NCBI GenBank assembly: GCA_040007715.1
Contig: JBDTUN010000921.1
Coordinates: 4,761-68,760, forward strand
Direction of reading: 5' to 3'
From: Acidobacteriota bacterium
GTDB lineage: Bacteria; Acidobacteriota; Blastocatellia; RBC074
Length of the DNA: 64,000 bases
Of the stretch, positions 12,133-45,579 are shown piece by piece. The position numbers were made by a program, and so were the translations under genes. The notes beneath the pieces are model-generated. The model did no database searches and was not told the DNA's origin. It saw only the letters and a program-made list of their open reading frames with translations. Position 1 is the first letter of the stretch; every line of letters starts with the position of its first letter.

Positions 12133-12189
12133 TTTTACTCCTTTCAATTGATCGTTAAGTTTGGGAAAGGTTAGCAGGTAACGCGGCGG

Positions 12190-17920: not shown

Positions 17921-17930
17921 CGGAAAGCCG

Positions 17931-18935
17931 ATGCAGCCAAACGACTCGCATCGCGCGGTCATCAACCCTCGCGCATTATTGATGGAAAGCGGAGAAGAGG
18001 TTCTGGCCGATTTGCTGCGCGGCACGGGCTACGTGATCCAACCCGGCATGCTGCGCGACTTGGCGCATGTGCTGCGTAGCTGCCTGCCGTGGCTGATTGA
18101 GGGGCCGCGCGGAGGAGGGAAGACGGCGCTCGCCGAAGCATTGGCGCAAGGCTGTAACCTGCCGGTCTATTACCTGCAAGGGATGGAAGGCCTCACGCTC
18201 GCCGACGTGCTCTACGACTGGGACCACGAAGGGCAGACGCAGTGGGTGCGGCAGGCGGTGGCCACGGGCGGGAGTTTTGAAGAGGGCAGGGCAGGGCAGT
18301 GGACGCGCGAGTTTCTCAAACTCGGCGAGGCGCTCGCTGCTTATGAGCGAGCCGCGCAGGATGAAGTCGTGCCGATTCTGATTTGCGACGAGTTCGACAA
18401 GGTCAGCGAGAAACTGGAAGACATGCTGTTGCAACTCTTTGCGCGCGGCTACGCGCATGTGCCGCGCTACGGCGAGATCGGCGTGCGGGATCAGGCGCGC
18501 TGGCCGGTCGTGATCCTGCTCTCGAACGACCAGCGCCATGACCTCTCGGCGCCGATGCGCTCACGCTGTCTCTACAGTTGGCTTCCGCCGCCGCTGCCGC
18601 GCGAAGAGGTGCGAATTCTGAAGGCGCGCTGCCCGATGGCGTCGCGACCATTGCTCATCAAGTTGGTGAAGCTGATCAACGGAATTCGTGGCTTGCCTGG
18701 CATCGTTGACAAGCCGGGATTGCGCGAATCTATTGCCTTGCTGCGCGCGCTCATCGCCGAAGGCCGCGCAGACCTGAGCCCGGAATGCCTTGAGCGGCAT
18801 CTTTGTTTTCTCGCCAAGCGTCATCTCGATCTGGAGAACTTGCGCAAATCTCTCGCCCGCGTCGAGATGATTATGGAGTCACCTGATTCCACCATCGAGG
18901 CCTGGGTTGAAGAACTTGAGGAGGCGATAGTATGA
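17931..18935 (+). CDS. MoxR-family AAA+ ATPase
   Basis: Walker A GPRGGGKT, Walker B ILICDEFDK, sensor regions LLSNDQRHDLSAPMRSRC and a C-terminal ...YP..EE..IL-like PLPREEVRIL. Layout and spacing are typical of MoxR/RavA. Start ATG at 17931. Confidence 0.75.
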   Translation: MQPNDSHRAVINPRALLMESGEEVLADLLRGTGYVIQPGMLRDLAHVLRSCLPWLIEGPRGGGKTALAEALAQGCNLPVYYLQGMEGLTLADVLYDWDHEGQTQWVRQAVATGGSFEEGRAGQWTREFLKLGEALAAYERAAQDEVVPILICDEFDKVSEKLEDMLLQLFARGYAHVPRYGEIGVRDQARWPVVILLSNDQRHDLSAPMRSRCLYSWLPPPLPREEVRILKARCPMASRPLLIKLVKLINGIRGLPGIVDKPGLRESIALLRALIAEGRADLSPECLERHLCFLAKRHLDLENLRKSLARVEMIMESPDSTIEAWVEELEEAIV

Positions 18936-24115: not shown

Positions 24116-25032
24116 AAAAGAAGCCTCCGGCCAACCTGCCTGCTTCAGTGCATGACCGCCTTTTGAAGATTGCCAAGCATCGAGGCGGAGAATTCCAGAA
24201 TCTGCTGGTCAACTACGCGCTGGAGCGCTGGCTCTATCGGATGTCGCAGTCGCCGCATCGTGAACGGTTCGTGCTGAAGGGAGCGATGCTCTTCTCGCTC
24301 TGGACGGATGAACCGCATCGCTCGACACAGGACCTTGATCTGCTCGGTTACGGCGACAACTCCATAGCTGAAATGGAACGCGTCTTTCGGGAGATTTGCG
24401 CGGTCGAGTGTGTCGCCGATGGACTAGAACTGCTGCCGGAGAGCGTCGAGGGCGGGTTGATCCGTGAAGACCGTAAATATGAGGGCGTCAGGATCAATCT
24501 ACTGGCGATGCTGGGCAAGGCGCGCATCCCGCTGCAGATTGACGTTGGCTTCGGCGACGCTGTCGTGCCGCCGCCGGCAGAGATGGAGTATCCAACGCTG
24601 CTTGATCTCCCCGCGCCACACCTGCGCGTTTACCGGCGCGAGACCGTCGTCGCGGAGAAGTTTCATGCGATGGTCGAGCGGGGAATCGGCAACAGCAGGA
24701 TGAAGGATTACTTCGATCTTTGGGTCTTGGCCGGGACGTTTGAATTTGAAGGAAGGACACTTGGGGAATCGATCCGCGCCGCCTTTGAGCGGCGGCAGAC
24801 GCCGTTGCCGACGATTACGCCCGTCGGGTTAAGTGAGGCATTTGGGAGTCATCCGGAAAAGCTCGCACAGTGGCGGGCATTTGTGAAACGCGGCAAACTC
24901 AACGCTGGTAATGTGAATTTGCCGGAAGTGGTTGCGCGTGCGCGTGATTTCTTGATGCCTTTGATGGAAGTTCTCGCTGCCGGCGCTTCGCCGGGCGGAA
25001 GTTGGAAGCCAGGAGAGGGAAGATGGAAATAA
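24112..25032 (+). CDS. abiEii: AbiEii/AbiGii-family nucleotidyltransferase toxin (DUF1814)
   Basis: Family-typical segments ([13 protein letters not shown]...[11 protein letters not shown]...[25 protein letters not shown]). TTG start at 24112 overlaps the abiEi stop (GTTGA). The Met at 24049 would overlap abiEi by 67 nt, so it was not used. Confidence 0.7.
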
Positions 25033-25592
25033 TGAAGGAAATTTACGTCTCGACTGATGTTGAAACCGACGGGCCGATTCCAGGCGTCAACTCAATGTTG
25101 AGTTTCGGCTCGGCTGCCTACCTTGCTGATAAAACGCTGGTCAGCACCTTCACGGCCCATCTGGAGACGCTGCCCGGCGCGCAAGCCCATCCAAAGACGA
25201 TGCGGTGGTGGCAAACGCAACCTGAGGCTTGGGCGGCCTGCCGCGAGAACCCACAAGCGCCGGAAGAAGTCATGCCCCGTTACGTCGCCTGGCTGAAAGC
25301 GCTTCCGGGGCAACCTGTGTTTGTCGGTTACCCGGCGTCCTTCGATTTCATGTTCGTCTACTGGTATCTGATCCGCTTTGCGGGCGAGAGTCCATTCTCG
25401 CATTCAGCGCTGGACATCAAGACATACGCGATGGCGTTGCTCAAGAAGGGCTACCGTGAGAGTGTCAAGCGCAATATGCCTCAGCGCTGGTTTGACGCTT
25501 TGCCGCATACGCATCTGGCATTGGACGACGCGATTGAGCAGGGCGCGCTGTTTTGCAATATGCTGGCGGTCAATCTTGAAGGCGCAGGTTGA
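25023..25592 (+). CDS. DEDDh-family 3'-5' exonuclease (RNase T / DnaQ-like fold)
   Basis: Exo I motif [10 protein letters not shown] near the N-terminus and a C-terminal H-x4-D (HTHLALDDA). Its ATG overlaps the abiEii stop (ATGGAAATAATGA). Confidence 0.65.
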
Positions 25593-25670: not shown

Positions 25671-28600
25671 ATGAGCGATGCGATCAACAATGATCCGGAC
25701 TTTTTGTGGCAGACGCTGCTCATTCTACGCGCGCTCGTCAGAACAAAAGACGACTCCTCAATTCGGCTCGAAGGGGATCGGCTTTACCTGGCGAGTGAAG
25801 AATTGCGGCTGCCTGCAGATGCCCTCTCCGAACGAGAGTTGAAAGATCGGATTCGCGAACTTGCACGCCGCGCAGGGCTGCCGGATGTTTCGGTCGGCTC
25901 GCTCGCCGAAATCTGGCGGACGGAATTGACTAATCGGGCGCTCTCTCGCAGCGAACTGCTCGAGCGCGGCGAGTGGGCGATCCTCAAACGCAATCCGAAA
26001 GAGACCGACATTGTCAGGCGCTGGCGCGATGAGTTGCTGGCGCGGATGGTAAACCAGTTGGCTGACCTCAATGCCGTCGAACGCTTTGAGCCTGCGGCAA
26101 CTTCCCAAGATCGCGAGCGCAAACTTGAACTCGGCCCGCTGATTGAGGATTGGCCGCGCCGCATTCTGGAAGACGATTACTGGAAGTATGCTGAAGCCCC
26201 GCTGCCGGAGATGAAGCCGCTGGCGCTGGATGATGTCTGGGTAGACTTGTTTTTGAGCGACCCGCTGGAAGCGACGGAAGAGCATGAAGTCGCGGCTTAT
26301 CAAGATTGGCACGACGAGCGGCAACGTTGGCGGACGGAGCCGGCGGCCTTCGTGTTGGAGAGGGTTTATGGCGCGACGGCGCTGGTTGGCCCGCCCGGCT
26401 GCGGCAAAACGACGCTGCTCAAATGGTTCGCCCGCCAGTTGATTGCCCGCCCGCAAGGACGCTTCCTGCTGCCGCTTTACGTCCCGCTGCGGAAGTATGC
26501 GCAGGCGCGTTACGCCTCCGGAGCCGGAAGCCACGCTCCGGCGTCCCTGTCGCTGCTGGAATTCGCCCTGCGTCAATGCGGCATTAAGCAACCTGCGCAG
26601 TTGGCCTTGTGGATGCCGACCATTGGCTATCTGACGGGCGCGGATCGCACCAACGTGCTGCTGATGCTCGACGGTTGGGATGAAGTGCCGGCGGAGCATC
26701 GTGAGCCAATGTTGGCGGAAATTGACGACTTGGCGCACGCCTTCGCCATCATTATCACGTCGCGCCCTTCCGGGTTTCCGCGCCTGCTGCCGGTCAGCCA
26801 TATTTACGAGATCGCCAGCCTGTCGCCAGACACCAGCGAGCGGTTGGTTCGCCGCTGGTTCGAGGCTTCGGGTGCGCCCGAGCAGGCAGAAGCGGTCTTG
26901 CGCAACTTGGACGCACACCCTGATTTGCGACGGCTGGTGCGCAATCCGTTCCTGCTCTCGTTGCTGTGCGGCATTTGTCGTCATGCCGATTACCTGGCGA
27001 CATCCTCCACGATGTCTGGGGCAGTTTCGCGCACCGCGCTTTACCGCCAAGCCATCCGCCTGATCATCGCACATCACAACCGGCACTTCCCGCGCCTGAT
27101 CACGGCGTTGGAAGAACGCAAGGTGGCGCGGCTCGCGCTCTGGCTGCAAGCCGACGCGCCGAATGCTCCGCGCTACGTCTTTGACCGCGCCGATGCGCAG
27201 CAATGCCTCAATGAAACAACGACGCTGGAGAACGTCCGCTCTTCGAGACTGCTCAGCCAACTTCATCTGGATCGAGAATCCTTCCACTTCCTGCACACGA
27301 CCTTTCAAGAGTATCTGGCCGCGCGGGGGCTATTGAGCGAACCGCCCGCCACGGCGGAGTCGCGGTTGCGCGAGCGCGTTTACGATCTGGGCTGGCAGGA
27401 GATTCTGTGTTTCGCTGCTGGCGAGAGCGCGGATGAAAAGATCAAAAACATTCTCTGGCAGCAACTCTCCGCGCTGGCGCGCCAGCCGGATCGCTTTGGG
27501 CTGGTCTTTGTCCGCCTCGCGCGCTTCGTGCGCGAAGCCGGAGCCGGTGACGGCGGGAAGTCTTTACTCGGCGTGGACGTGCGCGATGAACTCTGGCGGG
27601 CGATTGAGCAGGGCATCGAAATCAACGTCTTCGTGGACGCACATGCCGAACTTGATTCGAACGATCTGCTGCGGCGTATTGAAGAGCAGCTTGGTCGTAA
27701 TTCGGATGAACGAATCAGGGTGCGTCTGATCCGCGCGATGGGACGGTTCCGCAGCCCTGAAACGGCGCGGGCGCTGGTTGACAGAGTGCTCCACGGCGAC
27801 GACAACGCGGCGGCGATTGCGGCTTATGCCAGCCACCGCGTGCTTGACGCCGACGGCTTCCGAACATTGCGCGCAGCGATAACAGATGAAGAGTTAAGCG
27901 AGCAGCAACGCATCCGCGCACTGCGAACTTTGGGCAATGCGCGTGATTCGCTCATCGTGCCGGCACTGGCAGAGACAGCATGGCGACCGCTTGACGCCTT
28001 GAGCATTGAAGCGATCAAAGCCTTGGGCCGCATTGGTGACGCCGCCGCTTCCGCAAACTTAACTGAATTGCTTTCTGAAACTAACGACGTCGCCCGGCAG
28101 GAATTCATCATCACGGCGCTCGGCCAAGCGCGCGATCCTATTGCCAGGGATCGTTTGATTGAAGAAATCACTTTCCGTTGGCCGGACGACCCATTGTTGC
28201 CCGGCGCGCTTGAGGCGCTGATCGAGAAACCTTTCTATCACGGCGCGGAGACAGTGGCCGGATTGCTGCGCTGCGAGCGCCCGGAAGTGCGTGCCGCTGC
28301 AGCGCAGGCGCTCGCCGACTCGGCCCGCACGACCTACGGCCATGAACTGGCGCGCGTAGCTCAAGAAGACGGAGTGAAGGCCGTGCGCATGGCGGCGCTG
28401 CAATCGCTGATTAAACAGGGCGGCCCGCAGGACATCCTGAAGCTCTCCCGGCTGGCTGGCGACGAAGCGAGGGATATGGAAGAACGCGCCGAAGCGCTCG
28501 CAACCGCGCTGCAAATCTGCGCGCGGTTAACGCCGGATGCCTTGATGCTCAGAATGTTGAACCACTCGGCGCTTGATGCTTTGCAAGCGCCGAGTGGCTT

Positions 28601-31600
28601 GCTGGCGATGAGCGCCGCGTCACACGCACATGTGTTGGGTGACCAGATTGCCGAGCGGTTGCTTGAAATTTGTGGTGATGACCAGGCGTCGGATTCTGTC
28701 AGGGAAGAGGCTTGCCGTTCCATCGCGCGAATCCTGCGGAATCACGAGCACGTTTTGAAGGATCGAGCCGCAGACCTGTTACTTGATCTTGTGCGGCGCG
28801 AACCGGCGACCACTGCGGACGAAGAGGAGCCGAACCTGGATTCGCGCCAGCGTCTGGCGCAGGCCGCAGCCGTGGCGTTGACCGAGATCAACGTCGCACG
28901 CTTGCTCGGCGAGCCGGGCACGACATGCGCAAATGCGCTGGCCGCATTCGCTGTTCGAACGGGCTGTTTGGTGTTTCCTGATCGGATCATCAACGCCGGC
29001 GGTCAGACGATCGCCATCCAGCCACAACGTGCAGCCTCAACTGAACAAACATTGAATAGCGAGGCCGACCCGACTAACCGCGCCGATCACACCAGCCAGG
29101 CCAACCATGAATGCCTGCGGCGGGTCAGGCGATGGAGCCGCATCGCGGCAGACGACGCCCAGCAAGTTATTCAAGCAGCCGGTTCGGATCATCACGCCGA
29201 GGTGGTATTGGGACCGGAGTTGTACGTCGAGCGCGACATTGAGCAAGAGATTTGCGACCGTCTGGAAAAGTCAGGCCGTCGCGGGCAGTCCGCTTCCGTC
29301 CTTGTAACGGGTGATGCCGGACACGGAAAGACCAGCCTGCTGTGGCGGCTGCATCACACGTATGGGGCGCATCAGGCGCTCGAAGGGGCAGGGAACTGGG
29401 AGCCGTGGTTCATCAAATCAACATTGCTGGTGATGACTCCGCGTGCCGGAGAAGCGACAGGCGGACTATACCTTGATGATCTGCTCGCGGCTGCGCGGCT
29501 GGTGCTGGCTGAAGGGCGTAAGCCGCTGGTGCTGCTGGATACGGTGGACGCGTTGTTGCATGGCGAAGAGGCGGAGCGGGAGAGGGTGGTCGAGGCACTA
29601 CTCACCCTGTTGGAAGAAGGTTGCTCACTGATCGCGGCCTGCCGCCCGCAAGAGGCGGTGTTGCTGGGGCCGCTCAGGCGAGGCTCGCTGAGACTCGACG
29701 AATACCGAGGGCGCGAACTGACAGAGGCCATTGATAAACACGTCGCCCACTTCTACGCCTACGCCGACCTGCATACGCGCGAAGAGCACCGCGCGCACAT
29801 CAACTCCGTCGTGGCGCGCGGCCTGCCGCTGCGCGAAGTCTGCGTCAATCCGCTGACGCTGCGAATGCTGTTCGTGCTTTACGCGCCCGACGCTGTGCCG
29901 GCGGAAGTCAACGTCTTTGACCTTTATGACAAGTTCTGGCGGGATCGTGTGGTCACCGACAGGCGCGCCGGCAGTCCGTTGCCACCATCGGGTGCCGCCA
30001 ATCTTGAAAAGGCCGCAGCACTCGTCGCGCTGGTGATGTTGGCCGAAGGGCAGCCGGAATTGCCCGCGCAGCGCGTGCGTGATGGCGTGACCAACTTTGG
30101 AGGGGACGCAGCGGAAATCGAGCAGCTTATCAGCCGGGGCGTGCTGCACGGGCAAGGTGGCGCAACGCTGCACTTCTTCCATCAAACCTTTTTCGAGCAC
30201 AGCGCCGCGCGCGCCATCTTGGATCATTTCGGTGGCGGCGGTTTGACGATGCTGCAGCGCAGGCTGGCGAGCAGGCCCCACGATATGTTTCTCAGCCCGG
30301 TTTATGAACAAGCCCTGTTGCTAGCGGAGAATATGCCAGCCGCCGTCCGCCTCTGCGCGGATGATTTGCTGGGTAACCTCTTCCGCGCCGATTCGGCGAT
30401 TGAACGCAGCTCCGCCGCCTACATTTACGCCCATCGAAAAAGCGTTCCAACCGCAATTGCGCGGCAGTTTCATGCTTTACTGAAAGCCGCCGACACCGCG
30501 CTGGTCAGGCGCTTTCTTGCCGTCGCCCCGAACCTGCCGATCCAAAGATGGGCCGATCTGTTTCACGAACTTGACCTGATCTGGGAGCGCGGGAAGTGGG
30601 AAGAGCACGCGCACGTTCTCGATTTGCTCGAACGCCTGGCCGTGCGCGACGATCAGCGCGTGTTGGACTACCTGAGCAGGCACGAAGTCCTCGACTACAT
30701 TCTCAAACTACCATTCCATTTTCAGGGGGCGACACGGTTGCTGAGAGTTTATGCGGCGCTGGCCATTCATCAGCCGGTGCGGAGTTGGGAACTGGTTGGC
30801 AGGCTCTATCGCTTCGGTCTCAAAGAGCAGAGCCAGGATTTACAGATCAGCGCGATCAATGCGCTCGCGGAATACGCCACTCTCTACGGACCGGAAACCA
30901 TAGCGAGCCGGTTCGAGGAGATGGCGCGCAGCACCGCTGGTACGCCGCCGCGCTTTAACGAAGTCTTCCCGCAGGCCATCGGACGGTTGTGGGCGATTGA
31001 GTGGCGCGCTCGGAATGTCGCACTCAAAACCATTGTTGAGCAAGCGAGCGGCCCGCAGGCCGATCAGGTGCAAACGCGCGCGCGGCTTTACGGACTTGCC
31101 GCATTGCTGGTTGATTCCGGCAACGTCGCGGACGCAGCTTACCTATTCGAGAGCTTCAGGCGCGAAGCGGACGTTCACCGGCAGTGGCTGTGGGCGAGGA
31201 TGTGTTTGCCGGGCTTGCTTGGCAGTGAGGTGGAAGACAATGAACTCTCGCCTGCTGTGCGGCATATCAGAAGCGAGATCATCGCGATCTTTGGCGACCG
31301 GATCAGACAACCAAAAAGTTCTGCCGAAGCCGAGGCTGAAGCCGCGCCAGACTCGCAACGCATTTTCCTGATGGCGTGCGAAGCAGTGGAAAAGGCGAAC
31401 TTCTCGCCGGCGCGGCTGGCTGCATTGCTGGACTTCCCTGAAGCCGAAGCGCCGGAGGTCTGGTTGGATAAAGAGCTTTTTGCCGAGTTGTTGCCGGACG
31501 CCTATGTGGGTGGTCACTATGGAGCGGTGGAGGCCATGCGACTGCTGACGAATGCGCCGGAACGATTCCCGGAAGCGCCGGTCGTTCCCATCGCGCTGCG

Positions 31601-33560
31601 CCTTTCGGCGCTGGCCGCCGAACACCGCGAAGCCGTTTGGCAGTACCTCGCGCTCACCGCCCGGGCAGGGAGCGTGGAGGGCGCAGCGGCGCTCGTGCGG
31701 ACGCTGGAATTGTTGCAGCCGCCGGTCGCGGAAATCACGGATGATCTGAAGGTCTCACTAAACGCTTTCCGGCAATCGCTGGCGGCCTCGCGCTCCGTCC
31801 CCGCGCAACGGATTGGGTGCGCGTTGTGGTGGCATTTGGTGCGGTTGGGCGTTTGCGACGCGCCTTCACTCGATGAGATCAAGCGGCAACTGAAGGAGAA
31901 GTCCGATGTCACCACCCGGGCGGAACTCGTCAATCTGCTCGCTCAGGCCTCGGTCAGAAGCCGCTTTGATGCCGATCAGGTCGCCGCGATTCTGTTGCCG
32001 CTCGCCGGGTTGAAAGACCAAAAACTCGGCAAAACGGCGTTGACGGCGCTGGTCAACTTGATCGTCGAACTGCCTGTCGAAGCGCCTGAATTTATTCTTG
32101 ATGCGCTCGATGTGGCTTTGGCCGCGCCGACAGACTCCGGCCGCCCGACGCTTTTTGGCCGAGTGATAGAGTTTTTGTCGTTGCGTAACGTCGCCCTGGC
32201 CACGGAAATACTGAAGCGGATTCTGCTCGCGCCAGCCATCACCGAGTTGGGCAAGCAAGCGCAGAAGGACATCGCTAACCGGCTGCGCTCACCGGCCCGC
32301 CAACTCGTTCGTGTGATGACGCAGGAACAGCGCAATCAACTGCTCGCTTTGACGACGGCCATTGATCCGCTGCTTCAGCGCGTGATTGTGGAGGCTGTTT
32401 GCCACGAGGCGTTTATACCATCCATTGAGGTGCTCGATCAGTTATTGGCATCTACTTCTGGCGCCTCTGGCGCTGATGGTCAGGGGCTTGCTGATCGCAC
32501 GGTTGAATTGATCAGGCGACAGAAATACGCCAGGGAGCGTTCTGCCGGCGGCGAAACATGGGGGGAGTTGCCAAAGTTGTATGATCTGGTGAAGCAGGGA
32601 ACGAACTTTTCTGAACAGGAGACCGAACGAGTGAACATAAAACAAATTGATAGCGTGAGCGCCAGCAGCCAGGCTCAGTTGGCCAGACCGAGGCTCGGCA
32701 TCGTCATCGCTTTGGGTGAGGAGTTTGCTGAACTGTTTCGCGAAATCGAAGGATCATTCTTTCGCGACCGCGACCCTGACACGGGCCGGAATTACTACTT
32801 CTTTGATCGCGCTTCGTCAGCAACAGGGAAGACGTACCGCAATGTCGCCACCTTTGTAGGCGGCATGGGGCCTACGTCAGCGGCCCTAGTCTCACAGGCG
32901 ATGATGATTCGATACGCCCCACAGACAATGGTCATGCTGGGCATTGCGGGCGGCATAGATAGCGACGTGCGCATCGGCGACATCATCATTCCAACAGTCG
33001 TGGACGCTTACCTGGAAAATTCCAAAGCCGAGAAGTCGGCGGGCGGCGACGGATTTGAATTCATCCTCGGCGGCGAACCATTCCGCCCTAGCAATACCTG
33101 GATTCGGCTGGTTGAGCATTTGCCGTTTGCGCACAGAGATATTTTTGCCCGCTGGCAGGAAGAGTGCGCGGACGATTGGCTGACGTTGATGCCTGACGCG
33201 ACCGTGCGCGAGGAGTTGGTCGCTAAGTCTTGCGTGCGCGAAAAAGCCGGGTTGGTGACTGGCCATCTAGCCTCCGGGCCAACCGTCGGCGCGACTGAAA
33301 AATTCTCCGAGTGGCTCAAGACTCATCGAGACCGCAAGTATTTGGGCCTGGAAATGGAAGCGGCTGGATTGATGGCGGCGGCGAACGAGTATTTGCACGC
33401 CAAAGACACTTTGGTCGTCCGCGCGGTGTCCGACTTCGGCGACGAACGAAAGAAAGAAATGGAGCAAAAGTCGAAAGGGGTGCTCCGCCGCTATGCGGTT
33501 CGCAACGCCATCAGGCTGCTCTGGCTACTGGTCGAGGCAAACGACGCTATAAACGAGTGA
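25671..33560 (+). CDS. Giant (2629 aa) STAND NTPase: NACHT module 1, HEAT-like repeats, NACHT-like module 2, long helical repeat region, C-terminal PNP/MTAN-family nucleoside phosphorylase-like domain
   Basis: Module 1: GPPGCGKTT (aa ~241), LLMLDGWDEV, IIITSRP, NPFLLSLLC, FHFLHTTFQEYLAA. Module 2: VTGDAGHGKTSLL (aa ~1212), LVLLDTVDAL, LIAACRPQE, VNPLTLRMLF, LHFFHQTFFEHSAA. C-terminus (aa ~2341-2629): GIVIALGEEF..., MVMLGIAGGID and LGLEMEAAGL, matching the PNP_UDP_1 / MTA nucleosidase family. Confidence 0.8.
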   Translation: MSDAINNDPDFLWQTLLILRALVRTKDDSSIRLEGDRLYLASEELRLPADALSERELKDRIRELARRAGLPDVSVGSLAEIWRTELTNRALSRSELLERGEWAILKRNPKETDIVRRWRDELLARMVNQLADLNAVERFEPAATSQDRERKLELGPLIEDWPRRILEDDYWKYAEAPLPEMKPLALDDVWVDLFLSDPLEATEEHEVAAYQDWHDERQRWRTEPAAFVLERVYGATALVGPPGCGKTTLLKWFARQLIARPQGRFLLPLYVPLRKYAQARYASGAGSHAPASLSLLEFALRQCGIKQPAQLALWMPTIGYLTGADRTNVLLMLDGWDEVPAEHREPMLAEIDDLAHAFAIIITSRPSGFPRLLPVSHIYEIASLSPDTSERLVRRWFEASGAPEQAEAVLRNLDAHPDLRRLVRNPFLLSLLCGICRHADYLATSSTMSGAVSRTALYRQAIRLIIAHHNRHFPRLITALEERKVARLALWLQADAPNAPRYVFDRADAQQCLNETTTLENVRSSRLLSQLHLDRESFHFLHTTFQEYLAARGLLSEPPATAESRLRERVYDLGWQEILCFAAGESADEKIKNILWQQLSALARQPDRFGLVFVRLARFVREAGAGDGGKSLLGVDVRDELWRAIEQGIEINVFVDAHAELDSNDLLRRIEEQLGRNSDERIRVRLIRAMGRFRSPETARALVDRVLHGDDNAAAIAAYASHRVLDADGFRTLRAAITDEELSEQQRIRALRTLGNARDSLIVPALAETAWRPLDALSIEAIKALGRIGDAAASANLTELLSETNDVARQEFIITALGQARDPIARDRLIEEITFRWPDDPLLPGALEALIEKPFYHGAETVAGLLRCERPEVRAAAAQALADSARTTYGHELARVAQEDGVKAVRMAALQSLIKQGGPQDILKLSRLAGDEARDMEERAEALATALQICARLTPDALMLRMLNHSALDALQAPSGLLAMSAASHAHVLGDQIAERLLEICGDDQASDSVREEACRSIARILRNHEHVLKDRAADLLLDLVRREPATTADEEEPNLDSRQRLAQAAAVALTEINVARLLGEPGTTCANALAAFAVRTGCLVFPDRIINAGGQTIAIQPQRAASTEQTLNSEADPTNRADHTSQANHECLRRVRRWSRIAADDAQQVIQAAGSDHHAEVVLGPELYVERDIEQEICDRLEKSGRRGQSASVLVTGDAGHGKTSLLWRLHHTYGAHQALEGAGNWEPWFIKSTLLVMTPRAGEATGGLYLDDLLAAARLVLAEGRKPLVLLDTVDALLHGEEAERERVVEALLTLLEEGCSLIAACRPQEAVLLGPLRRGSLRLDEYRGRELTEAIDKHVAHFYAYADLHTREEHRAHINSVVARGLPLREVCVNPLTLRMLFVLYAPDAVPAEVNVFDLYDKFWRDRVVTDRRAGSPLPPSGAANLEKAAALVALVMLAEGQPELPAQRVRDGVTNFGGDAAEIEQLISRGVLHGQGGATLHFFHQTFFEHSAARAILDHFGGGGLTMLQRRLASRPHDMFLSPVYEQALLLAENMPAAVRLCADDLLGNLFRADSAIERSSAAYIYAHRKSVPTAIARQFHALLKAADTALVRRFLAVAPNLPIQRWADLFHELDLIWERGKWEEHAHVLDLLERLAVRDDQRVLDYLSRHEVLDYILKLPFHFQGATRLLRVYAALAIHQPVRSWELVGRLYRFGLKEQSQDLQISAINALAEYATLYGPETIASRFEEMARSTAGTPPRFNEVFPQAIGRLWAIEWRARNVALKTIVEQASGPQADQVQTRARLYGLAALLVDSGNVADAAYLFESFRREADVHRQWLWARMCLPGLLGSEVEDNELSPAVRHIRSEIIAIFGDRIRQPKSSAEAEAEAAPDSQRIFLMACEAVEKANFSPARLAALLDFPEAEAPEVWLDKELFAELLPDAYVGGHYGAVEAMRLLTNAPERFPEAPVVPIALRLSALAAEHREAVWQYLALTARAGSVEGAAALVRTLELLQPPVAEITDDLKVSLNAFRQSLAASRSVPAQRIGCALWWHLVRLGVCDAPSLDEIKRQLKEKSDVTTRAELVNLLAQASVRSRFDADQVAAILLPLAGLKDQKLGKTALTALVNLIVELPVEAPEFILDALDVALAAPTDSGRPTLFGRVIEFLSLRNVALATEILKRILLAPAITELGKQAQKDIANRLRSPARQLVRVMTQEQRNQLLALTTAIDPLLQRVIVEAVCHEAFIPSIEVLDQLLASTSGASGADGQGLADRTVELIRRQKYARERSAGGETWGELPKLYDLVKQGTNFSEQETERVNIKQIDSVSASSQAQLARPRLGIVIALGEEFAELFREIEGSFFRDRDPDTGRNYYFFDRASSATGKTYRNVATFVGGMGPTSAALVSQAMMIRYAPQTMVMLGIAGGIDSDVRIGDIIIPTVVDAYLENSKAEKSAGGDGFEFILGGEPFRPSNTWIRLVEHLPFAHRDIFARWQEECADDWLTLMPDATVREELVAKSCVREKAGLVTGHLASGPTVGATEKFSEWLKTHRDRKYLGLEMEAAGLMAAANEYLHAKDTLVVRAVSDFGDERKKEMEQKSKGVLRRYAVRNAIRLLWLLVEANDAINE

Positions 33561-33783
33561 CACGGCAGCAGCTCTCTGCGGAAAGAACCTATGCCTTACA
33601 TATTTGTCCGAAGCTCTGGTCAGCGTTGAGTGCTACAAAGGACAGGAACAGAAAGTTGCGCGGCAGGGAAACCACCTAGGCTAGCGATGCTTTGCCTGCC
33701 TGCAATCTGATGTGGCGCACGAAAGCCAGCCAGTGAAGTCGTTGATCTCAGGGCACACGCTTATTTCGGGAAGGGAGATAGCT

Positions 33784-35073
33784 ATGATACCAATTCAAAT
33801 TCTGCTTGCCACCGACGAAGTCAGCATCATTCCCGATTACGCAAAACAGCTTTTTGAGAGTCCAGACTGGTTCGGCGATGACCCTGCGCCGGTTACCCGG
33901 GGGCTGACTGGCGAATTGTCCGCGCATGGTTTTCAAGTTGGCTTCACCAAACTGGATGAGCTAGCCGAATCGCTCGAACTGCGGGCGACTCTCGGCTGCG
34001 TCTACCATGTGCTATGCATCCTGACCATCCGGGTCTGGAAGGTTGGTCGCACGCTTCGCACAGCCATCGAATCAGTGCGCGCCTTGCCTGATGAAGTGCT
34101 ACTTACGAATGGTCTGCGTCTCAAAACGCTGCCGGTTGTCATCGCCAACCCTGCCAATCTGCTGGGCAACGCTAAAAAATATGACGATGATTTAGAATGG
34201 GTCGCCAATGCCCGCTGGGTTGGTGCCCAGCAAGGTGATGAAGTGGTGGCCGAGACGCTGATCCGCAGCCTGGCGGATTGGCAATCAGAAATGGTGGCGG
34301 AACTCGAATACGTGGGTTGTGGCGTCAGCATGAGCGAGACGGGAAGTCTCGAAGTCTTTCCCTATTTCGAGCGGAATTCCCTGGAGAGTCTGTTCTTCGG
34401 CCCGCGCGCTACCATCGCTGGGCTGCGTGAAACAGGTTTTATTCGGCTTCCAAAAGAGGCGGTCGTCATTGCTGATTCGCTCTATGCATTGGAGCAAGCG
34501 TTGAATGAGGTCAGAACTCTGCCACCCAAGGAGCAGGAACCGCGGCTACAAAAGTGCCTTGAAGAAAATCCGGTTTTGATCACGCAGGGAATGTTTGGAA
34601 CTCCCTGGTCACGACGCACACTCAAGCATCCAGACCCGCTTCAGCAGGCAATTCAGCCGGATTTCGTCATGACGCCTCATGCAGATTGGGATCAAGTCCT
34701 GCGCCCTCGCGTGCTTGAAATCAAGACTTCTGAAAAAATAGCCGTTCGCCGAAAGCAGCTAACGAAGGATTTGCTTGATGCTTTGGAACAACTCATGGGG
34801 CGTTATGCGCGTTTCTTTGCGGATGAAAGGACACGTGAGGTACAGACCAAAATTTATGGCCGCCCGCTCGAACGGCCAAACTACGCACTGCTCATTGACA
34901 GACATATCTCGCCGGAAGACAAACAGATTTGGGAAGAGAAACGAGGGCAGAGCGTATGGAAGGACGTGTCGCTGGTTACCTACAATGATCTCCTGGATTT
35001 CGCCGCACAGCGCGTGAGTTTGGTCAACCAAGTGAATTATCGCCTACATCAGAAACTAGCCGGTAAGGATTAG
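33784..35073 (+). CDS. PD-(D/E)xK nuclease-like protein (possibly Shedu/DUF4263-like)
   Basis: Start ATG 33784 with GGAGAT SD. C-terminal half carries PDFVMT...(15 aa)...LEIKT (PD...ExK). The Shedu family assignment is a guess from size and layout. Confidence 0.4.
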   Translation: MIPIQILLATDEVSIIPDYAKQLFESPDWFGDDPAPVTRGLTGELSAHGFQVGFTKLDELAESLELRATLGCVYHVLCILTIRVWKVGRTLRTAIESVRALPDEVLLTNGLRLKTLPVVIANPANLLGNAKKYDDDLEWVANARWVGAQQGDEVVAETLIRSLADWQSEMVAELEYVGCGVSMSETGSLEVFPYFERNSLESLFFGPRATIAGLRETGFIRLPKEAVVIADSLYALEQALNEVRTLPPKEQEPRLQKCLEENPVLITQGMFGTPWSRRTLKHPDPLQQAIQPDFVMTPHADWDQVLRPRVLEIKTSEKIAVRRKQLTKDLLDALEQLMGRYARFFADERTREVQTKIYGRPLERPNYALLIDRHISPEDKQIWEEKRGQSVWKDVSLVTYNDLLDFAAQRVSLVNQVNYRLHQKLAGKD

Positions 35074-35140
35074 CGCAAAGATCATTAGTTTTTGGCGAGC
35101 CTGTCGGTTATTCGAGGGGCGGCATTGTCGTAAGACCGCT

Positions 35141-37750
35141 TCAAGTGGACTGTATTGGAGACAGATCAACCGCTGTCACATAACTGCTTTTGAACTTCTT
35201 CGTCACATCACAAGCGAGTGTCAATTTGTCGCCCTCGACGTTGAGAACGACGGTGAGGAAAGGCGCCGCGACTTTCGACAGAAAAACCAGATCACCGCGC
35301 ACCGGTTCACGCGGCAAGGTGGGAGCGTTGCGCAAATCGCCGCTGAGGAGAGCGAGATGCGCGCCCCATTGCAATTGCGCCTTGAGCCACTCTTCCGATT
35401 TCCGGTTTGATATTGACGATAAAAGCGCTGTGCGCGTTCTGCTCACAGCCTCTTCATCACTCGAAGTGTCTGCGGTCAGGTACATCAGTTGTTCGAGGCC
35501 ATAGAGGTTTTCCCATAAGACATCCGGTTCGTCGTCGTCCAACACTGTTCTTACATCCAATTGACAATCCCAAGCCAACCACAACAGCAACCCGCGCACA
35601 GCCGATGCTTCAATGCAGTGTTCGTCACCAGCCTCCTGCAACGCTGCCTTCATCACTCCGCAATCTCGTGCATACAAATAACGACAGGCATTCAGAAAGA
35701 ACTCCCATTGAGCGTCGAGCGGCACGATGCGTTCCCCACGGGGAACCCATGCGGTGTAGTTAACACGGTTAGTAAGATGCTGGGTGAGACCGAGCACTGC
35801 GGCGAGATGCAGTAGCGCGCGCAGCGGATTGCTCTGGCCTTCAGCCGCAAGCGCGAGTTGGCCTGTCATACGCCTAAACAGGCTTCTAAACCGGCGGTGG
35901 CAAGTCTTCAAGAGCGCCGCGCCATCAATTTCGACGGACAGATCAGGCTCTTCACTTTCATCTTCCTTCAATTCCTCTTCACTACGTTTGATAATCAGGT
36001 ACCCCACCAAAGGGGAGGCAAGTCCCTGTCCGAGGCGGTGGATCAGAACGCTGAGGATGAGCGCAAGGTCGCCTGTTGCAAGCGGCCGCCATCTACGTGT
36101 GCCCGTTTTGGCCTGCCCCAGTCTTATGCTGTCTGCCGCCAGAGATGTTATTTCCGAGTCTCCATCGTTCTGGTTATTGCCGGAAGTAAATGAAGCTGAC
36201 CGCTCAAATAAGCCATCTACAGTATCGTCGGCGATCACTTTCTCAATCAGCTTCAGCAATTCAATGGGAGCTTCGCTGTCGGGCGAAGCAAGCGCGCGTT
36301 TGAACTCTCGCTGCAAATCGGTTTGTGCGGCATCGGCCAGATCCGCCGTGTGATGCACGATGGCGTAGGCTAAATCGCAGCCGTCAGTTTGCAGTTCGAG
36401 CAGCCGGGTAAATGACAGCGCGGCAGGATCGTGGACTTTAAGGCGGAGGATTTCACCATCGAAACTAAATGCTGAACTATCACCCAAATTCGTGCCGTCG
36501 GCATCAAGCAGAGTAGCGCGGCTAAAGCCCATCGGCCCATTGCTGAAACCGTAAATCTCAAAACCGTCTTCTACTTTGCAGGCAATCAATAGCGAACAAG
36601 CGATACGCTCCTCGTCGGTTGAAAGAGGTTTGTTCTGACTTACCTTCTCCCAGTCTGGCGCGGTGAGAGGCGGTTGTGTGGCCAGAGCCGACAGCCCCAA
36701 CGCCCGTCCGAGCGAGTCCTTTCTTCCGGCGCGGCGCAGAATGACTGCCTCGGCATTTCGTTTTGTAGGCCCTGCGAGCCAAGCCGGCGGCGTCGGGTTC
36801 GCGCTGCCGGTGATGAGCAGTTCTTCGCCCTGCTCGGTTTCAAAGAGGATCGCTTTAGCGTGCAGATAACCACTCCCATCGTGTAGCAAGCTTGCATCCA
36901 CAAACTTTGCTTGCGGGACGATCTGGCAGGCATCGGCTGGGATGATGACTTTTTCAGGCTCGATACCGACGACCAGATTCTTGGGTGAGAAATCTTCGCC
37001 GAGCCGCTTGATGAACATTAGGCTCTGATCGAAGAAGGGGCCGACCGCAACAATCCGCTTTACTCTGGCGGGCACACGTTCGCGCACCAACTCCCACAAA
37101 GGAGGCCCGGTTGGCTCTGACCCGAAGAAGTGGCTTTCCTTGCCATCTACAATTGGCTCCTGCGGCTCTTGTAACCAGGGTGCGAAGCGCGCCATTGCGT
37201 TGACCGTTTCCTGCAAAGGCTCCGGCAAAGTGGCGGCCCAGGCTTTGATGAAGTTTAGAGCAGCATGAAAAGTTGGCAGGAGCGCCCGGTCTTTGTTGCC
37301 CGAATACTCAAAGCAGTTGGTCAATTCCCGGTTGAAACTGAAGCCTGAGAGCGTGAGGTTGTGGCTGCCGACTAGCAGCAAACCATGCTGGCGACCGGCA
37401 AGCAGGACAAGCTTGGGGTGAAAGGCTCCGCCGCATTTGATTGGCAGCAGGGCGTAGCTTTTCCCAGCCAATCGCGGGCGTAAGTCTGTTCGCGCCAGCG
37501 CCTGCCCGCATTGCCCGGCATCCATCAGCACAACATTGTGCTGGCAGCCAGCCGCAGTCAGGTGGCGGAGTACCACCTCTTCGTAAAAAGGGAAATACGC
37601 ATTGAAGGTGGTGACGAGCGAGGCCGCATACTCGCGCCGCCGGATAGCTTCAAAAATCGAAAGCTCTTCAGGCACGGCAGTACTCCAGTAACTCATGCCC
37701 GGTCTGAGTGAGTCGTCTGCGGCCAGTGGTTTCATCAAACGCCAGTGCAT
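35141..37750 (-). CDS. Phospholipase D (PLD/HKD) superfamily protein, two HKD-like motifs in the N-terminal ~350 aa plus a ~500-aa uncharacterised C-terminal region
   Basis: HPKLVLLAG...LLLVGSHNLT and HAKAILFETEQGEELLITGSANPT (HxK...GSxN twice). The first motif lacks the canonical Asp. 869 aa; the 5' end overlaps the upstream gene. Confidence 0.6.
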   Translation of the reverse strand: MHWRLMKPLAADDSLRPGMSYWSTAVPEELSIFEAIRRREYAASLVTTFNAYFPFYEEVVLRHLTAAGCQHNVVLMDAGQCGQALARTDLRPRLAGKSYALLPIKCGGAFHPKLVLLAGRQHGLLLVGSHNLTLSGFSFNRELTNCFEYSGNKDRALLPTFHAALNFIKAWAATLPEPLQETVNAMARFAPWLQEPQEPIVDGKESHFFGSEPTGPPLWELVRERVPARVKRIVAVGPFFDQSLMFIKRLGEDFSPKNLVVGIEPEKVIIPADACQIVPQAKFVDASLLHDGSGYLHAKAILFETEQGEELLITGSANPTPPAWLAGPTKRNAEAVILRRAGRKDSLGRALGLSALATQPPLTAPDWEKVSQNKPLSTDEERIACSLLIACKVEDGFEIYGFSNGPMGFSRATLLDADGTNLGDSSAFSFDGEILRLKVHDPAALSFTRLLELQTDGCDLAYAIVHHTADLADAAQTDLQREFKRALASPDSEAPIELLKLIEKVIADDTVDGLFERSASFTSGNNQNDGDSEITSLAADSIRLGQAKTGTRRWRPLATGDLALILSVLIHRLGQGLASPLVGYLIIKRSEEELKEDESEEPDLSVEIDGAALLKTCHRRFRSLFRRMTGQLALAAEGQSNPLRALLHLAAVLGLTQHLTNRVNYTAWVPRGERIVPLDAQWEFFLNACRYLYARDCGVMKAALQEAGDEHCIEASAVRGLLLWLAWDCQLDVRTVLDDDEPDVLWENLYGLEQLMYLTADTSSDEEAVSRTRTALLSSISNRKSEEWLKAQLQWGAHLALLSGDLRNAPTLPREPVRGDLVFLSKVAAPFLTVVLNVEGDKLTLACDVTKKFKSSYVTAVDLSPIQST

Positions 37751-41712: not shown

Positions 41713-41789
41713 AGTTTGTCAGGCATTCTCCTTCCTACTTTTGGAGAGGGGAATGGCCACTGTGCCTATTGTAGTGTTTTTCAATTAAA

Positions 41790-45572: not shown

Positions 45573-45579
45573 CCAGCTT

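What the first reader, a model, noticed from the sequence alone, without database searches (positions are those of the whole stretch)
25671..33560. 2629-aa single-polypeptide STAND protein with two tandem NACHT modules, HEAT repeats and a C-terminal PNP/MTAN nucleosidase-like effector domain
Both NTPase modules show the full NACHT motif set (P-loop, hhhhD[GT]hDE, TSRP/ACRP-like, GxP-like NPhhLxhL, and the FxHxTFxEYLAA winged-helix motif). The C-terminal ~290 aa carry GIAGG and LEMEAAG motifs of the PNP/MTA-nucleosidase family. Domains of that family act as nucleotide-depleting effectors in other defence systems. A double-NACHT architecture with a C-terminal rather than N-terminal effector and ~900 aa of helical repeats is unusual for bacterial NLR-like / Avs-type proteins. 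It may be a new antiviral STAND variant.
Basis: partly seen in the sequence, partly recalled or inferred. Interest (0 to 1): 0.8.

Follow-up and report, generated by a model that had tools for sequence, protein, structure and literature searches.

The report
Two-in-one bacterial NLR with nucleosidase
A single 2629-residue bacterial immune-receptor-like protein is an end-to-end fusion of two complete NLR-type switch-and-sensor units ending in one nucleotide-cleaving killer domain; every part is of a known kind, and only the tandem arrangement is unusual.

Summary
The ORF (25671-33560, +, 2629 aa) is real and is a maintained gene. Five independently assembled orthologues (83-100% identity) are colinear, and dN/dS is 0.05-0.18 in every domain.

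It consists of two units and an effector.
- Unit A (aa 1-~1120) has a conserved N-domain, a canonical NACHT and HEAT repeats.
- Unit B (aa ~1147-2300) has a NACHT-like STAND NOD and a ~770-aa HEAT-like solenoid. It lacks the D[GAS]hDE signature.
- The effector (aa 2339-2629) is an MTAN-fold PNP domain with its catalytic Glu/Glu/Asp intact.

A and B each belong to a widespread stand-alone single-gene STAND family with swappable effectors. C-terminal effectors, PNP included, are normal in family A, and PNP is a known STAND effector. What is unusual is the tandem fusion. It recurs independently in relatives (A-CHAT-B, A-A).

The gene sits in a defence island (AbiE, Pycsar, Bil-like, Shedu-like) on a conjugative element in an Acidobacteriota MAG.

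Most likely it is a single-gene abortive-infection receptor with two sensors and one ATP-nucleosidase-type effector. I rate it a new variant of a known kind, of moderate interest.

The parts
25671..33560 (+). Whole gene: 2629-aa tandem STAND protein (unit A + unit B + PNP)
   Evidence: ORF list and translation. Identical protein in NCBI as 'MAG: NACHT domain-containing protein [Acidobacteriota bacterium]', plus four colinear orthologue clusters. dN/dS is 0.05-0.18 per domain.
25671..26240 (+). Unit A N-terminal domain (aa 1-190), function unknown, conserved across family A
   Evidence: Alignments to family A start at aa ~15 at 42-63% identity. Invariant Trp residues W161, W171 and W190. No Pfam or PDB-profile hit.
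26241..27350 (+). NOD 1: canonical NACHT (aa ~191-560). K246, D334-G-W-D-E338, R365, H542
   Evidence: Pfam NACHT 1.2e-18. Motifs invariant in family A. Family profile hits NLRC4 at 5e-6.
27351..28970 (+). Unit A helical/HEAT repeat region (aa ~561-1100), presumed sensor 1
   Evidence: Pfam HEAT_2, three stretches. Family profile matches alphaRep/HEAT proteins at 1e-37.
28971..29180 (+). Junction between the two units. It contains a polar, low-complexity tether of about 30 aa (aa ~1119-1146)
   Evidence: Family A alignments end at aa ~1115-1136 and family B alignments begin at aa ~1145-1150. Sequence. Lower conservation among orthologues, yet dN/dS is about 0.11.
29181..30275 (+). NOD 2: NACHT-like STAND NTPase (aa ~1171-1535). 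K1220, D1290-T-V-D1293, R1325, H1504
   Evidence: AAA_16 3e-8 and nSTAND5 sub-threshold. hhalign against NOD 1 gives 98.6% probability, E 7.6e-16. Motif residues are invariant in 84 family B sequences. In the model this part resembles NOD2, NLRC4 and NLRP7.
30276..32570 (+). Unit B all-helical HEAT/ARM-like solenoid (aa ~1536-2300), presumed sensor 2
   Evidence: AF2 model pLDDT 90.9, all helices. Foldseek matches SF3B1, CAND1 and importin-beta. Family profile matches AP-1/2 beta-adaptin and importin-4.
32571..32684 (+). Variable tether to the effector (aa ~2301-2338)
   Evidence: 52% conservation among orthologues. P0003-5 carry an insertion of about 85-95 aa here. dN/dS is about 0.5.
32685..33557 (+). 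C-terminal PNP/MTAN-fold nucleosidase effector (aa 2339-2629). E2350/E2351, E2561-M-E2563, S2587-D2588
   Evidence: PNP_UDP_1 5.4e-16. PADLOC CBASS 'Effector PN-superfamily' 1.6e-13 and PDC-M60C 2.7e-18. Model pLDDT 95.4. MTAN structures at E 1e-18. Catalytic columns (nearly) invariant in 66 sequences. dN/dS 0.05.

Best explanation
This is a single-gene, NLR-like anti-phage (or anti-mobile-element) abortive-infection receptor. It was made by end-to-end fusion of two autonomous STAND receptors.

**Architecture (shown).** Unit A is an N-domain, a NACHT and HEAT repeats. Unit B is a NACHT-like NOD, a HEAT-like solenoid and a C-terminal PNP domain. They are joined by a disordered tether of about 30 aa.

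**Proposed operation (inferred).**
1. At rest each NOD holds ADP, read by the winged-helix His (H542, H1504), and the protein is autoinhibited.
2. A phage protein binds one solenoid or the other. This gives two sensors with, most simply, OR logic.
3. Binding releases that NOD, which exchanges nucleotide and oligomerises.
4. Because both units are on one chain, either oligomerisation event clusters the tethered PNP domains.
5. PNP-fold enzymes form their active sites in oligomers (established knowledge for MTAN dimers and PNP trimers/hexamers). The clustered domains then hydrolyse the N-glycosidic bond of an adenine nucleotide, most likely ATP/dATP as shown for the Cap17/DtcC immune PNP clade.
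6. This drains the cell's energy and aborts infection.

**Status of each step.**
- Shown: the domain architecture, the intact switch and catalytic residues, purifying selection on all parts, the autonomy of both parent families, and the defence-island context.
- Inferred: the trigger, the logic linking the two sensors, oligomerisation, and the substrate.
For: **Architecture and motifs:**

**All domains under purifying selection, PNP most strongly:**

**Unit A is an autonomous family.** It has 154 representatives at E<=1e-30. Its C-terminal slot carries CHAT, TIR+CHAT, trypsin or PNP.

**Unit B is an autonomous family.** It has more than 120 members at 25-41% identity over 97% of its length. 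Its members carry PNP, TIR, CHAT, trypsin, Mrr, SIR2, SMEK or EAD adaptors at the N- or C-terminus. P0083 and P0088 are stand-alone B-PNP proteins, and P0083 sits alone among Tn7-like and defence genes.

**PNP domain.**
- Pfam, PADLOC and the fold all agree, and the MTAN catalytic triad equivalents are conserved.
- It is not a housekeeping MtnN or DeoD.
- Its nearest relatives are small effector proteins carrying EAD1, GAAD, bDLD1 or TIR.
- Immune PNP domains cleave ATP/dATP and occur on Avs/NLR-like proteins (Rousset et al.).

**Context.** The neighbours are AbiE, a CBASS-type exonuclease, a Shedu-like gene, a PLD, Pycsar, a Bil-like set and a GajB-like helicase, all on a conjugative element. 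The orthologues sit in the same island but with reshuffled neighbours, so no partner gene is obligatory.
Against: - No experiment exists. The trigger, the oligomeric state and the substrate are all unknown.
- Cap17-clade membership of the PNP domain was not tested by phylogeny. Its scores against the Cap17-type PADLOC model (48 bits), the generic Pfam model (59 bits) and the MTAN model (52 bits) are similar.
- Nothing computed here separates OR logic from a cascade or an AND gate.
- The full A-B-PNP architecture is confined to one narrow clade (>=83% identity) on related elements. Its selective value could therefore be marginal.
- A DEDDh exonuclease gene lies directly upstream in 3 of 5 orthologous loci and might contribute.
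Confidence: 0.55

Rival explanations
1. Covalent sensor-helper cascade. Only unit A senses the invader. Its oligomer nucleates unit B, which no longer senses anything itself and acts as a built-in helper or amplifier that assembles the PNP effector. This would resemble NAIP-NLRC4 or plant sensor/helper NLR pairs, but on one chain.
For: - Unit A occupies the N-terminal position in every A+B fusion found, and it has lost its own effector.
- A+B fusions arose at least twice from different B sub-clades. P0234's B half is 51% identical to the stand-alone CHAT-B protein P0119 but only 30% identical to the window's B. This suggests a functional fit between the two families.
- Plants have tandem-NB-ARC NLRs that act as helpers: WTN1 (bioRxiv 10.1101/2024.08.30.610185).
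Against: - Unit B keeps its full solenoid of about 770 aa under the same purifying selection as in unit A. A pure helper would be expected to relax or lose its sensor.
- A and B family genes were never found as neighbours in the loci inspected.
Confidence: 0.2
2. The PNP domain is not an ATP-depleting killer. Instead it acts on another nucleotide, such as NAD+-derived or signalling nucleotides, or it releases a base or ribose-phosphate as a second messenger. Aravind and colleagues predicted this for PNPase domains in conflict systems.
For: - Kaur et al. (eLife 2020) and Kibby et al. list PNPase among signal-generating or NAD+-targeting domains.
- The domain has a helical insert of about 45 aa relative to MTAN.
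- Its placement in the Cap17 clade is untested.
Against: - All biochemically tested immune PNP domains (Cap17, DtcC, eukaryotic NLRN/DDAN) cleave ATP/dATP.
- No obvious downstream receptor gene is conserved next to the orthologues.
Confidence: 0.15
3. The function is not anti-phage. The protein would be an addiction, exclusion or competition module of the conjugative element, or a regulatory STAND.
For: - The gene rides on a conjugative element carrying ParA, a relaxase, a T4CP and a VirB4/TraC-like gene.
- STAND clades switch between defence and non-defence roles (Lee et al., Nature 2026, PMC13581612).
Against: - The gene is flanked on both sides by recognised defence genes.
- Both parent families carry typical suicide effectors: TIR, CHAT, SIR2, Mrr and PNP.
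- There is no DNA-binding output domain.
Confidence: 0.07
4. Assembly artefact, or a decaying fusion of two genes in which one half is a relic.
For: - The full architecture is rare. It forms one cluster among 1.84 billion representatives.
- It was absent from a scan of GTDB species genomes with the junction region as query.
Against: - Five orthologue clusters from independent assemblies are colinear, with no stop codon or frameshift.
- Both NOD motif sets are intact in all of them.
- dN/dS is 0.10-0.18 in both units and across the junction.
Confidence: 0.02

Closest known systems
Bacterial NACHT (bNACHT) NLR-related anti-phage proteins (Kibby et al., bioRxiv 10.1101/2022.07.19.500537)
   Same: Unit A has a canonical NACHT with D-G-W-D-E, a winged-helix His, and HEAT repeats as a receptor-type region. 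[quoted passage not shown]
   Different: The described architectures have one NOD per polypeptide. Here a second complete NOD plus solenoid unit lies between the first unit and the effector. No PADLOC STAND, Avs or bNACHT model matches beyond the P-loop.
Avs / NLR-like proteins with a PNP effector, and the Cap17/DtcC ATP nucleosidase clade (Rousset et al., bioRxiv 10.1101/2023.01.24.525353)
   Same: A PNP_UDP_1-fold domain serves as the output of a STAND sensor within a defence island. The catalytic Asp position mutated in DtcC/Cap17-type enzymes is conserved here (D2588). The domain hits the PADLOC CBASS 'PN-superfamily' effector model.
   Different: In that paper the PNP domain sits at the N-terminus of Avs proteins, whereas here it is at the extreme C-terminus of a tandem STAND. 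Clade membership and the ATP substrate were not tested here.
NTP-dependent conflict systems of 'multicellular' bacteria, with EAD/bDLD/GAAD adaptors and nSTAND NTPases (Kaur et al., eLife 2020 PMC7159879; eLife 2021 PMC8195603)
   Same: The closest PNP relatives are small effectors fused to EAD1, GAAD or bDLD1. Family B members carry EAD2 or EAD5 in the effector slot. The phyla and the effector repertoire (CHAT, TIR, trypsin, PNPase) are the same.
   Different: Here the effector is fused directly rather than recruited through an adaptor. I found no description of two STAND modules on one chain in these papers.
Relatives with A-CHAT-B, A-CHAT-NB-ARC or A-A tandem architecture (P0009-11, P0234, P0275, P0025, P0279)
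   Same: They have the same unit A at the N-terminus and a second STAND NOD downstream, at about 2100-2650 aa. They sit in a defence context; P0009 lies next to BREX.
   Different: Their effector is a CHAT protease placed between the two units, not a PNP domain at the C-terminus. Their B halves come from other B sub-clades, so the fusions are independent. None is characterised.
Plant tandem-NB-ARC NLRs (wheat WTN1, the Sr62 partner NLR) and sensor/helper NLR pairs (NAIP-NLRC4; plant paired NLRs)
   Same: The tandem-NB-ARC NLRs have two NODs in one immune receptor. The pairs divide labour between a sensing unit and an executing unit.
   Different: They belong to a different STAND clade (NB-ARC) and produce a different output (a Ca2+ channel). 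The plant duplication lies within one family, whereas here two distinct families are fused. The resemblance is an analogy only.

Membership tests
NACHT (module 1) | Pfam PF05729 above the gathering score | tested here: met
   67.9 bits against a cut-off of 26.7, aa 237-399.
NACHT (module 1) | Walker B signature D[GAS]hDE (Kibby et al.) | tested here: met
   D334-G-W-D-E338, invariant in family A.
NACHT (module 1) | Winged-helix extension with a conserved His; homology to animal NLR NODs | tested here: met
   FLHTTFQEYLAAR with H542 invariant. The family profile hits NLRC4 at 5e-6 and NLRP3 weakly.
NACHT (module 2) | Walker B signature D[GAS]hDE | tested here: not met
   D1290-T-V-D-A. D-T-x-D is invariant in 84 family B sequences and is not followed by an acidic doublet.
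NACHT (module 2) | Pfam PF05729 above the gathering score on this module | tested here: inconclusive
   The whole-protein hit reports a second stretch. Stand-alone family B members score about 21 bits, below the 26.7 cut-off, and hit nSTAND5 and AAA_16 about equally.
STAND NTPase (module 2) | P-loop NTPase with sensor-1 Arg and a winged-helix His, homologous to a bona fide STAND NOD, followed by repeats | tested here: met
   hhalign against the module 1 NOD gives 98.6% probability, E 7.6e-16, over 304 columns. K1220, D1290, R1325 and H1504 are invariant. The model resembles NOD2, NLRC4, NLRP7 and Cdc6/Orc1.
HEAT/ARM repeat solenoids (both units) | Profile or fold match to HEAT-type repeats | tested here: met
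   Unit A: HEAT_2 1.5e-17 and alphaRep 1e-37. Unit B: beta-adaptin and importin at 4e-7; SF3B1, CAND1 and importin-beta by Foldseek.
PNP_UDP_1 / MTAN-fold nucleosidase superfamily | Pfam PF01048 above the cut-off, and the fold | tested here: met
   59.1 bits against a cut-off of 25.1. Model pLDDT 95.4. MTANs at E 1e-18 with TMt about 0.8.
PNP_UDP_1 / MTAN-fold nucleosidase superfamily | Catalytic residues equivalent to E. coli MTAN Glu12, Glu174 and Asp197 | tested here: met
   E2350/E2351, E2563 (in the LEMEAAG motif) and D2588 (in the VSD motif) align to MTAN VEMEA and AISD. They are (nearly) invariant in 66 relatives.
Housekeeping MtnN / DeoD / AMP nucleosidase (NCBIfam equivalogs) | Score above the curated equivalog cut-off | tested here: not met
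   The best score is 52 bits against a cut-off of 169 (MtnN). All others are far below their cut-offs.
Cap17-clade immune ATP nucleosidase | Match to a defence-effector PNP model and association with defence architectures | tested here: met
   PADLOC PDLC00759 (CBASS PN-superfamily effector) 1.6e-13 and PDC-M60C 2.7e-18. The relatives are fused to EAD1, GAAD, bDLD1, TIR or STAND modules.
Cap17-clade immune ATP nucleosidase | Phylogenetic placement inside the Cap17 clade rather than with the housekeeping clades | not tested
Cap17-clade immune ATP nucleosidase | Cleaves ATP/dATP to adenine plus (deoxy)ribose-5'-triphosphate | not testable with these tools
   This needs a biochemical assay.
Known PADLOC STAND defence families (Avs and the like) | Hit of either NOD/sensor unit to a curated defence STAND model | tested here: not met
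   Only P-loop-length matches at E>=8e-4 (mad8, MkoA and others). The PDB profile hit to Avs4 is E 0.009 and covers the NTPase only.
Defence-island gene | Neighbourhood enriched in recognised defence genes, also in the orthologues | tested here: met
   The neighbours are AbiEi/AbiEii, an exonuclease effector, an SduA-like gene, a ZacB-like PLD, PycC plus PycTIR, BilD plus JAB, and a GajB-like helicase. The same gene set recurs around the orthologues.

The most novel reading that the evidence does not exclude
Tandem STANDs would be a distinct, so far undescribed class of bacterial immune receptor. In this class two autonomous NLR-like units from different families are covalently coupled to drive one effector. 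The coupling would act either as a dual-specificity (OR) receptor or as a cis sensor-helper cascade. The repeated independent A+B fusions (A-B-PNP, A-CHAT-B) would then reflect a genuine functional interaction between the two families. That would make this a prokaryotic counterpart of paired or helper NLR networks and of the plant tandem-NB-ARC NLRs.
Probability: 0.3. Interest if true: 0.7.

Novelty: new variant of a known kind. Interest (0 to 1): 0.5.

Why it matters
Bacterial NLR-like proteins are currently understood as one switch, one sensor and one effector.

A maintained protein with two complete switch-sensor units feeding one nucleosidase effector, together with independently evolved relatives of the same layout, offers a natural test case. 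It bears on how NLR units communicate: cooperative nucleation, OR/AND logic, or sensor-helper relationships. These questions are otherwise studied in plant and animal NLR pairs.

The finding also adds a C-terminal, tandem-STAND context to the ATP-nucleosidase effector family. It defines two large STAND families (A and B) that PADLOC does not recognise and that have swappable effectors. They could be mined for new phage-sensing specificities.

If the tandem arrangement turns out to be merely additive, the finding is an ordinary if very large member of the known STAND defence repertoire.

Tried and rejected
1. **Mis-assembly or fused pseudogene.** Rejected. Five colinear orthologue clusters exist and dN/dS is low everywhere.

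2. **Internal tandem duplication of one unit.** Rejected. The two NODs share only about 20% identity. Each unit has much closer stand-alone relatives, 42-63% for A and about 40% for B.

3. **Multi-gene system with a conserved partner.** The upstream DEDDh exonuclease is present in 3 of 5 orthologous loci and absent in 2. All other neighbours are reshuffled. No obligatory partner was found.

4. **Rosetta-stone test: are A-family and B-family genes neighbours elsewhere?** Not in the six loci inspected.

5. **Origin of the PNP from an A-PNP or a B-PNP ancestor.** Unresolved. The domain is closest to adaptor-linked stand-alone effectors (48-51%), then to B-PNP (39-41%), then to A-PNP (30-36%).

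6. **Sequence search of unit B against the PDB.** The single sequence found nothing. The family profile found only HEAT proteins and weak NTPase hits.

7. **GTDB genome scan with the junction region as query.** No relative found.

8. **Literature searches for tandem or double NACHT or STAND modules in bacteria.** Nothing relevant was found. Two of these searches were swamped by unrelated word matches. Absence from this open-access library does not prove absence from the literature.

10. **tRNA genes and tandem repeats in or near the gene.** None found. Promoter and terminator scans were uninformative.
Full report
**1.

The + strand carries one uninterrupted ORF from ATG 25671 to the stop at 33558-33560, 2629 aa. 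A purine-rich stretch lies just upstream of the ATG.

Pfam finds four features:
- NACHT at aa 237-399 (1.2e-18);
- three HEAT_2 stretches;
- a second P-loop module at aa 1183-1314 (AAA_16 3e-8; nSTAND5 below threshold);
- PNP_UDP_1 at aa 2342-2616 (5.4e-16).

The identical protein is in NCBI as 'MAG: NACHT domain-containing protein [Acidobacteriota bacterium]'. Four further clusters (83-92% identity, 2616-2704 aa) come from independent JGI and Logan assemblies. They are colinear end to end, apart from an insertion of about 85-95 aa in the tether before the PNP domain.

Nei-Gojobori dN/dS against two orthologous loci is 0.10-0.18 in every structured domain. It is about 0.11 across the junction between the units and 0.05 in the PNP domain. 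The gene is therefore real and maintained, and no part of it is decaying.

**2. Anatomy: two complete receptor units plus an effector.**

*Unit A (aa 1-~1120).*
- It has a conserved N-domain of about 190 aa with unknown fold and function.
- Its NACHT is canonical: K246, D334-G-W-D-E338, R365 and H542 are all invariant in the family.
- Its HEAT region is about 540 aa.
- The family profile hits NLRC4 (5e-6) and HEAT/alphaRep proteins (1e-37) in the PDB.

*Unit B (aa ~1147-2300).*
- It starts after a polar tether of about 30 aa.
- Its NOD aligns to the unit A NOD by profile-profile comparison at 98.6% probability, E 7.6e-16, over 304 columns. The alignment runs from Walker A through the winged-helix His.
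- K1220, D1290, R1325 and H1504 are invariant in 84 relatives.
- An AlphaFold2 model of aa 1141-2335 is confident (pLDDT 90.9, pTM 0.88). It shows an alpha/beta NOD followed by an all-helical solenoid.
- Foldseek matches the NOD to NOD2, NLRC4, NLRP7 and Cdc6/Orc1. It matches the solenoid to SF3B1, CAND1 and importin-beta. This agrees with the profile hits to beta-adaptin and importin.
- Unit B's Walker B reads D-T-V-D-A. It therefore fails the D[GAS]hDE signature that defines the NACHT clade (Kibby et al.). Family members score below Pfam's NACHT threshold and hit nSTAND5 about equally often.
- I therefore call it a NACHT-like STAND NOD, not a second NACHT.

*The PNP domain (aa 2339-2629).*
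- It follows a variable tether.
- The model has pLDDT 95.4. The best structural matches are MTA/SAH nucleosidases (E 1e-18, TM about 0.8 on the target).
- It carries an extra helical insert of about 45 aa.
- The residues equivalent to MTAN Glu12, Glu174 and Asp197 are E2350/E2351, E2563 and D2588. They are conserved here and in 66 relatives.
- The domain is far below the NCBIfam cut-offs for MtnN, DeoD and AMP nucleosidase.
- It does hit the PADLOC CBASS 'PN-superfamily' effector model (1.6e-13) and PDC-M60C (2.7e-18).

**3. Where the parts come from.**

Searching the whole protein and each part separately shows that the protein is a fusion of two otherwise autonomous families.

*Family A.*
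- It has 154 representatives at E<=1e-30 among 1.84 billion cluster representatives.
- Members are typically 1100-1500 aa.
- The variable effector is at the C-terminus, after the HEAT repeats. Examples are CHAT, TIR+CHAT (P0006, 63% identical over aa 1-1130) and trypsin.
- Nine representatives carry a C-terminal PNP (A-PNP, about 1400 aa).

*Family B.*
- More than 120 members share 25-41% identity over 97% of the unit.
- Most carry an N-terminal effector or adaptor: PNP, TIR, CHAT, trypsin, Mrr, SMEK, EAD5 or HTH.
- Some have a C-terminal one. P0083 and P0088 carry PNP, P0028 carries a CAP12-type TIR, P0096 carries SIR2 and P0094 carries EAD2.
- Some are bare cores with a small CHAT-like gene 19 nt upstream.
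- P0083 (B-PNP) sits alone among Tn7-like and defence genes.

Both units can therefore work as single-gene systems.

The closest relatives of the PNP domain (48-51% identity) are effector proteins of 400-500 aa that carry EAD1, GAAD, bDLD1 or TIR. This is the effector-plus-adaptor format of the conflict systems described by Kaur et al..

**4. The tandem arrangement recurs.**

Among the family A hits, several other lineages have a second NOD:
- P0009-11, P0234 and P0275 are A-CHAT-B, at about 2600 aa;
- P0025 is A-CHAT-NB-ARC;
- P0279 has two A-type NACHTs.

P0234's B half is 51% identical to the stand-alone CHAT-B protein P0119 but only 30% identical to the window's B, where it ranks 82nd. The window's B is closest to P0029-34. 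A+B fusion therefore happened at least twice, independently.

P0076-78 show B followed by yet another P-loop.

The exact A-B-PNP layout is restricted to the one narrow clade of >=83% identity. It was not found in a scan of GTDB species genomes with the junction as query.

**5. Context.**

The window is a conjugative element. It carries ParA, a VirB4/TraC-like gene, a T4 coupling protein and a MobL-type relaxase.

Its cargo is a defence island:
- a Cas4-like nuclease;
- AbiEi/AbiEii;
- a CBASS-type DEDDh exonuclease;
- the giant gene;
- a Shedu-like gene;
- a ZacB-like PLD with a partner gene;
- Pycsar (PycC plus PycTIR);
- a Bil-like E1/JAB set;
- an M78-UvrD/GajB-like helicase.

The orthologues lie in the same island, but it is rearranged:
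- In the window, L004 and L014 the gene follows AbiE and the exonuclease.
- In L001-3 and L013 it follows the divergently oriented PLD pair, and no exonuclease is present.

No neighbour is obligatory.

**6. Mechanism.**

The shown facts are these:
- there are two NODs, each with a complete switch residue set;
- there are two repeat solenoids;
- there is one catalytically intact nucleosidase-fold domain on a flexible tether;
- all of these are under purifying selection;
- the parent families are autonomous;
- the context is a defence island.

From established STAND and NLR behaviour, I infer an ADP-locked resting state read by the winged-helix His, ligand-induced nucleotide exchange and oligomerisation, and effector activation by induced proximity. 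From Rousset et al., I take it that immune PNP domains cleave ATP/dATP.

My best explanation is therefore a two-sensor, one-effector abortive-infection receptor. Either solenoid can trigger oligomerisation, and clustering of the PNP domains then depletes ATP.

A cis sensor-helper cascade is the main rival and is not excluded. Wheat WTN1 shows that tandem-NOD NLRs can be functional helpers.

The trigger, the logic and the substrate remain untested.

**7. Comparison and novelty.**

Each element is already known:
- NACHT plus HEAT, PNPase effectors and occasional C-terminal effectors on bNACHT proteins;
- PNP on Avs/NLR-like proteins;
- huge STAND diversity, with 589 clades of which 198 are defence-associated (Lee et al.).

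PADLOC does not recognise either unit. My literature searches found no description of bacterial proteins with two STAND modules, though the library is incomplete.

I rate this a new variant of a known kind. The tandem fusion is the real point of interest.

**8. Limits.**

Noticed in passing
window 25002-25592 (+): A DEDDh 3'-5' exonuclease gene lies 79 nt upstream of the giant gene. It matches the PADLOC CBASS-type 'Effector Exonuclease' model over its full length (3.9e-31). It keeps this position in L004 and L014 but is absent from L001-3 and L013. It could be an accessory of the STAND gene, of AbiE, or an independent gene.
   Followed up: partly
window 456-21750 and 58381-60699: Backbone of a conjugative element: ParA (456-1325, -), DUF3854 (5211-6347, -), a TraC/VirB4-like gene (9337-12147, -), a MoxR-like AAA_5 gene (17892-18935), a T4 coupling protein (19657-21750) and a MobL-type relaxase (58381-60699, -). 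There is no tRNA gene in the window.
   Followed up: partly
window 40804-44001 (-): A complete Pycsar system: a PycTIR effector with cNMP-binding and TIR domains (3.5e-112) and a PycC cyclase (6.9e-121). A SEC-C-motif protein is encoded between them (41790-42509).
   Followed up: no
window 44124-46538 (-): A Bil-like ubiquitin-type conjugation defence set: an E1/ThiF gene (BilD 6e-13), a JAB peptidase and a 152-aa gene. The same block, plus a Rad60-SLD ubiquitin-like gene, occurs in L001.
   Followed up: no
window 33712-39317: A Shedu-like gene (weak SduA_C hit; 33712-35073, +) is followed by an 869-aa PLD-family protein (ZacB-like, 1.2e-13; 35141-37750, -). The PLD gene overlaps a 549-aa partner of unknown family (37668-39317, -). 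The three travel together in the orthologous islands (L001, L013) but lie on the other side of the giant gene there.
   Followed up: partly
window 46945-50421 (-): A 1158-aa fusion of an M78 (IrrE-like) peptidase with a UvrD/GajB-like helicase. It is conserved at the edge of the island in L001.
   Followed up: no
L006 8356-8982 and L007 6386-6982: Effector-less 'core' members of family B (P0042, P0044) have a separate CHAT-like gene of about 200 aa that ends 19 nt upstream. This is a split version of the CHAT-B architecture.
   Followed up: no
proteins P0029, P0032, P0033 (C-terminal ~263 aa): The closest stand-alone relatives of unit B carry a C-terminal domain of about 263 aa with no Pfam match. 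It sits in the position where the window protein has PNP and is a candidate new effector domain.
   Followed up: no
window 55264-58329 (-): A 1021-aa ORF next to the relaxase gene has no Pfam hit.
   Followed up: no
L012 (Klebsiella plasmid NZ_CP080102.1, 16507-18402): Klebsiella and Raoultella plasmids encode a PNP+TIR protein of about 630 aa, annotated only as 'TIR domain-containing protein'. Its PNP domain is 32% identical to the one in the window. IS elements flank it.
   Followed up: no
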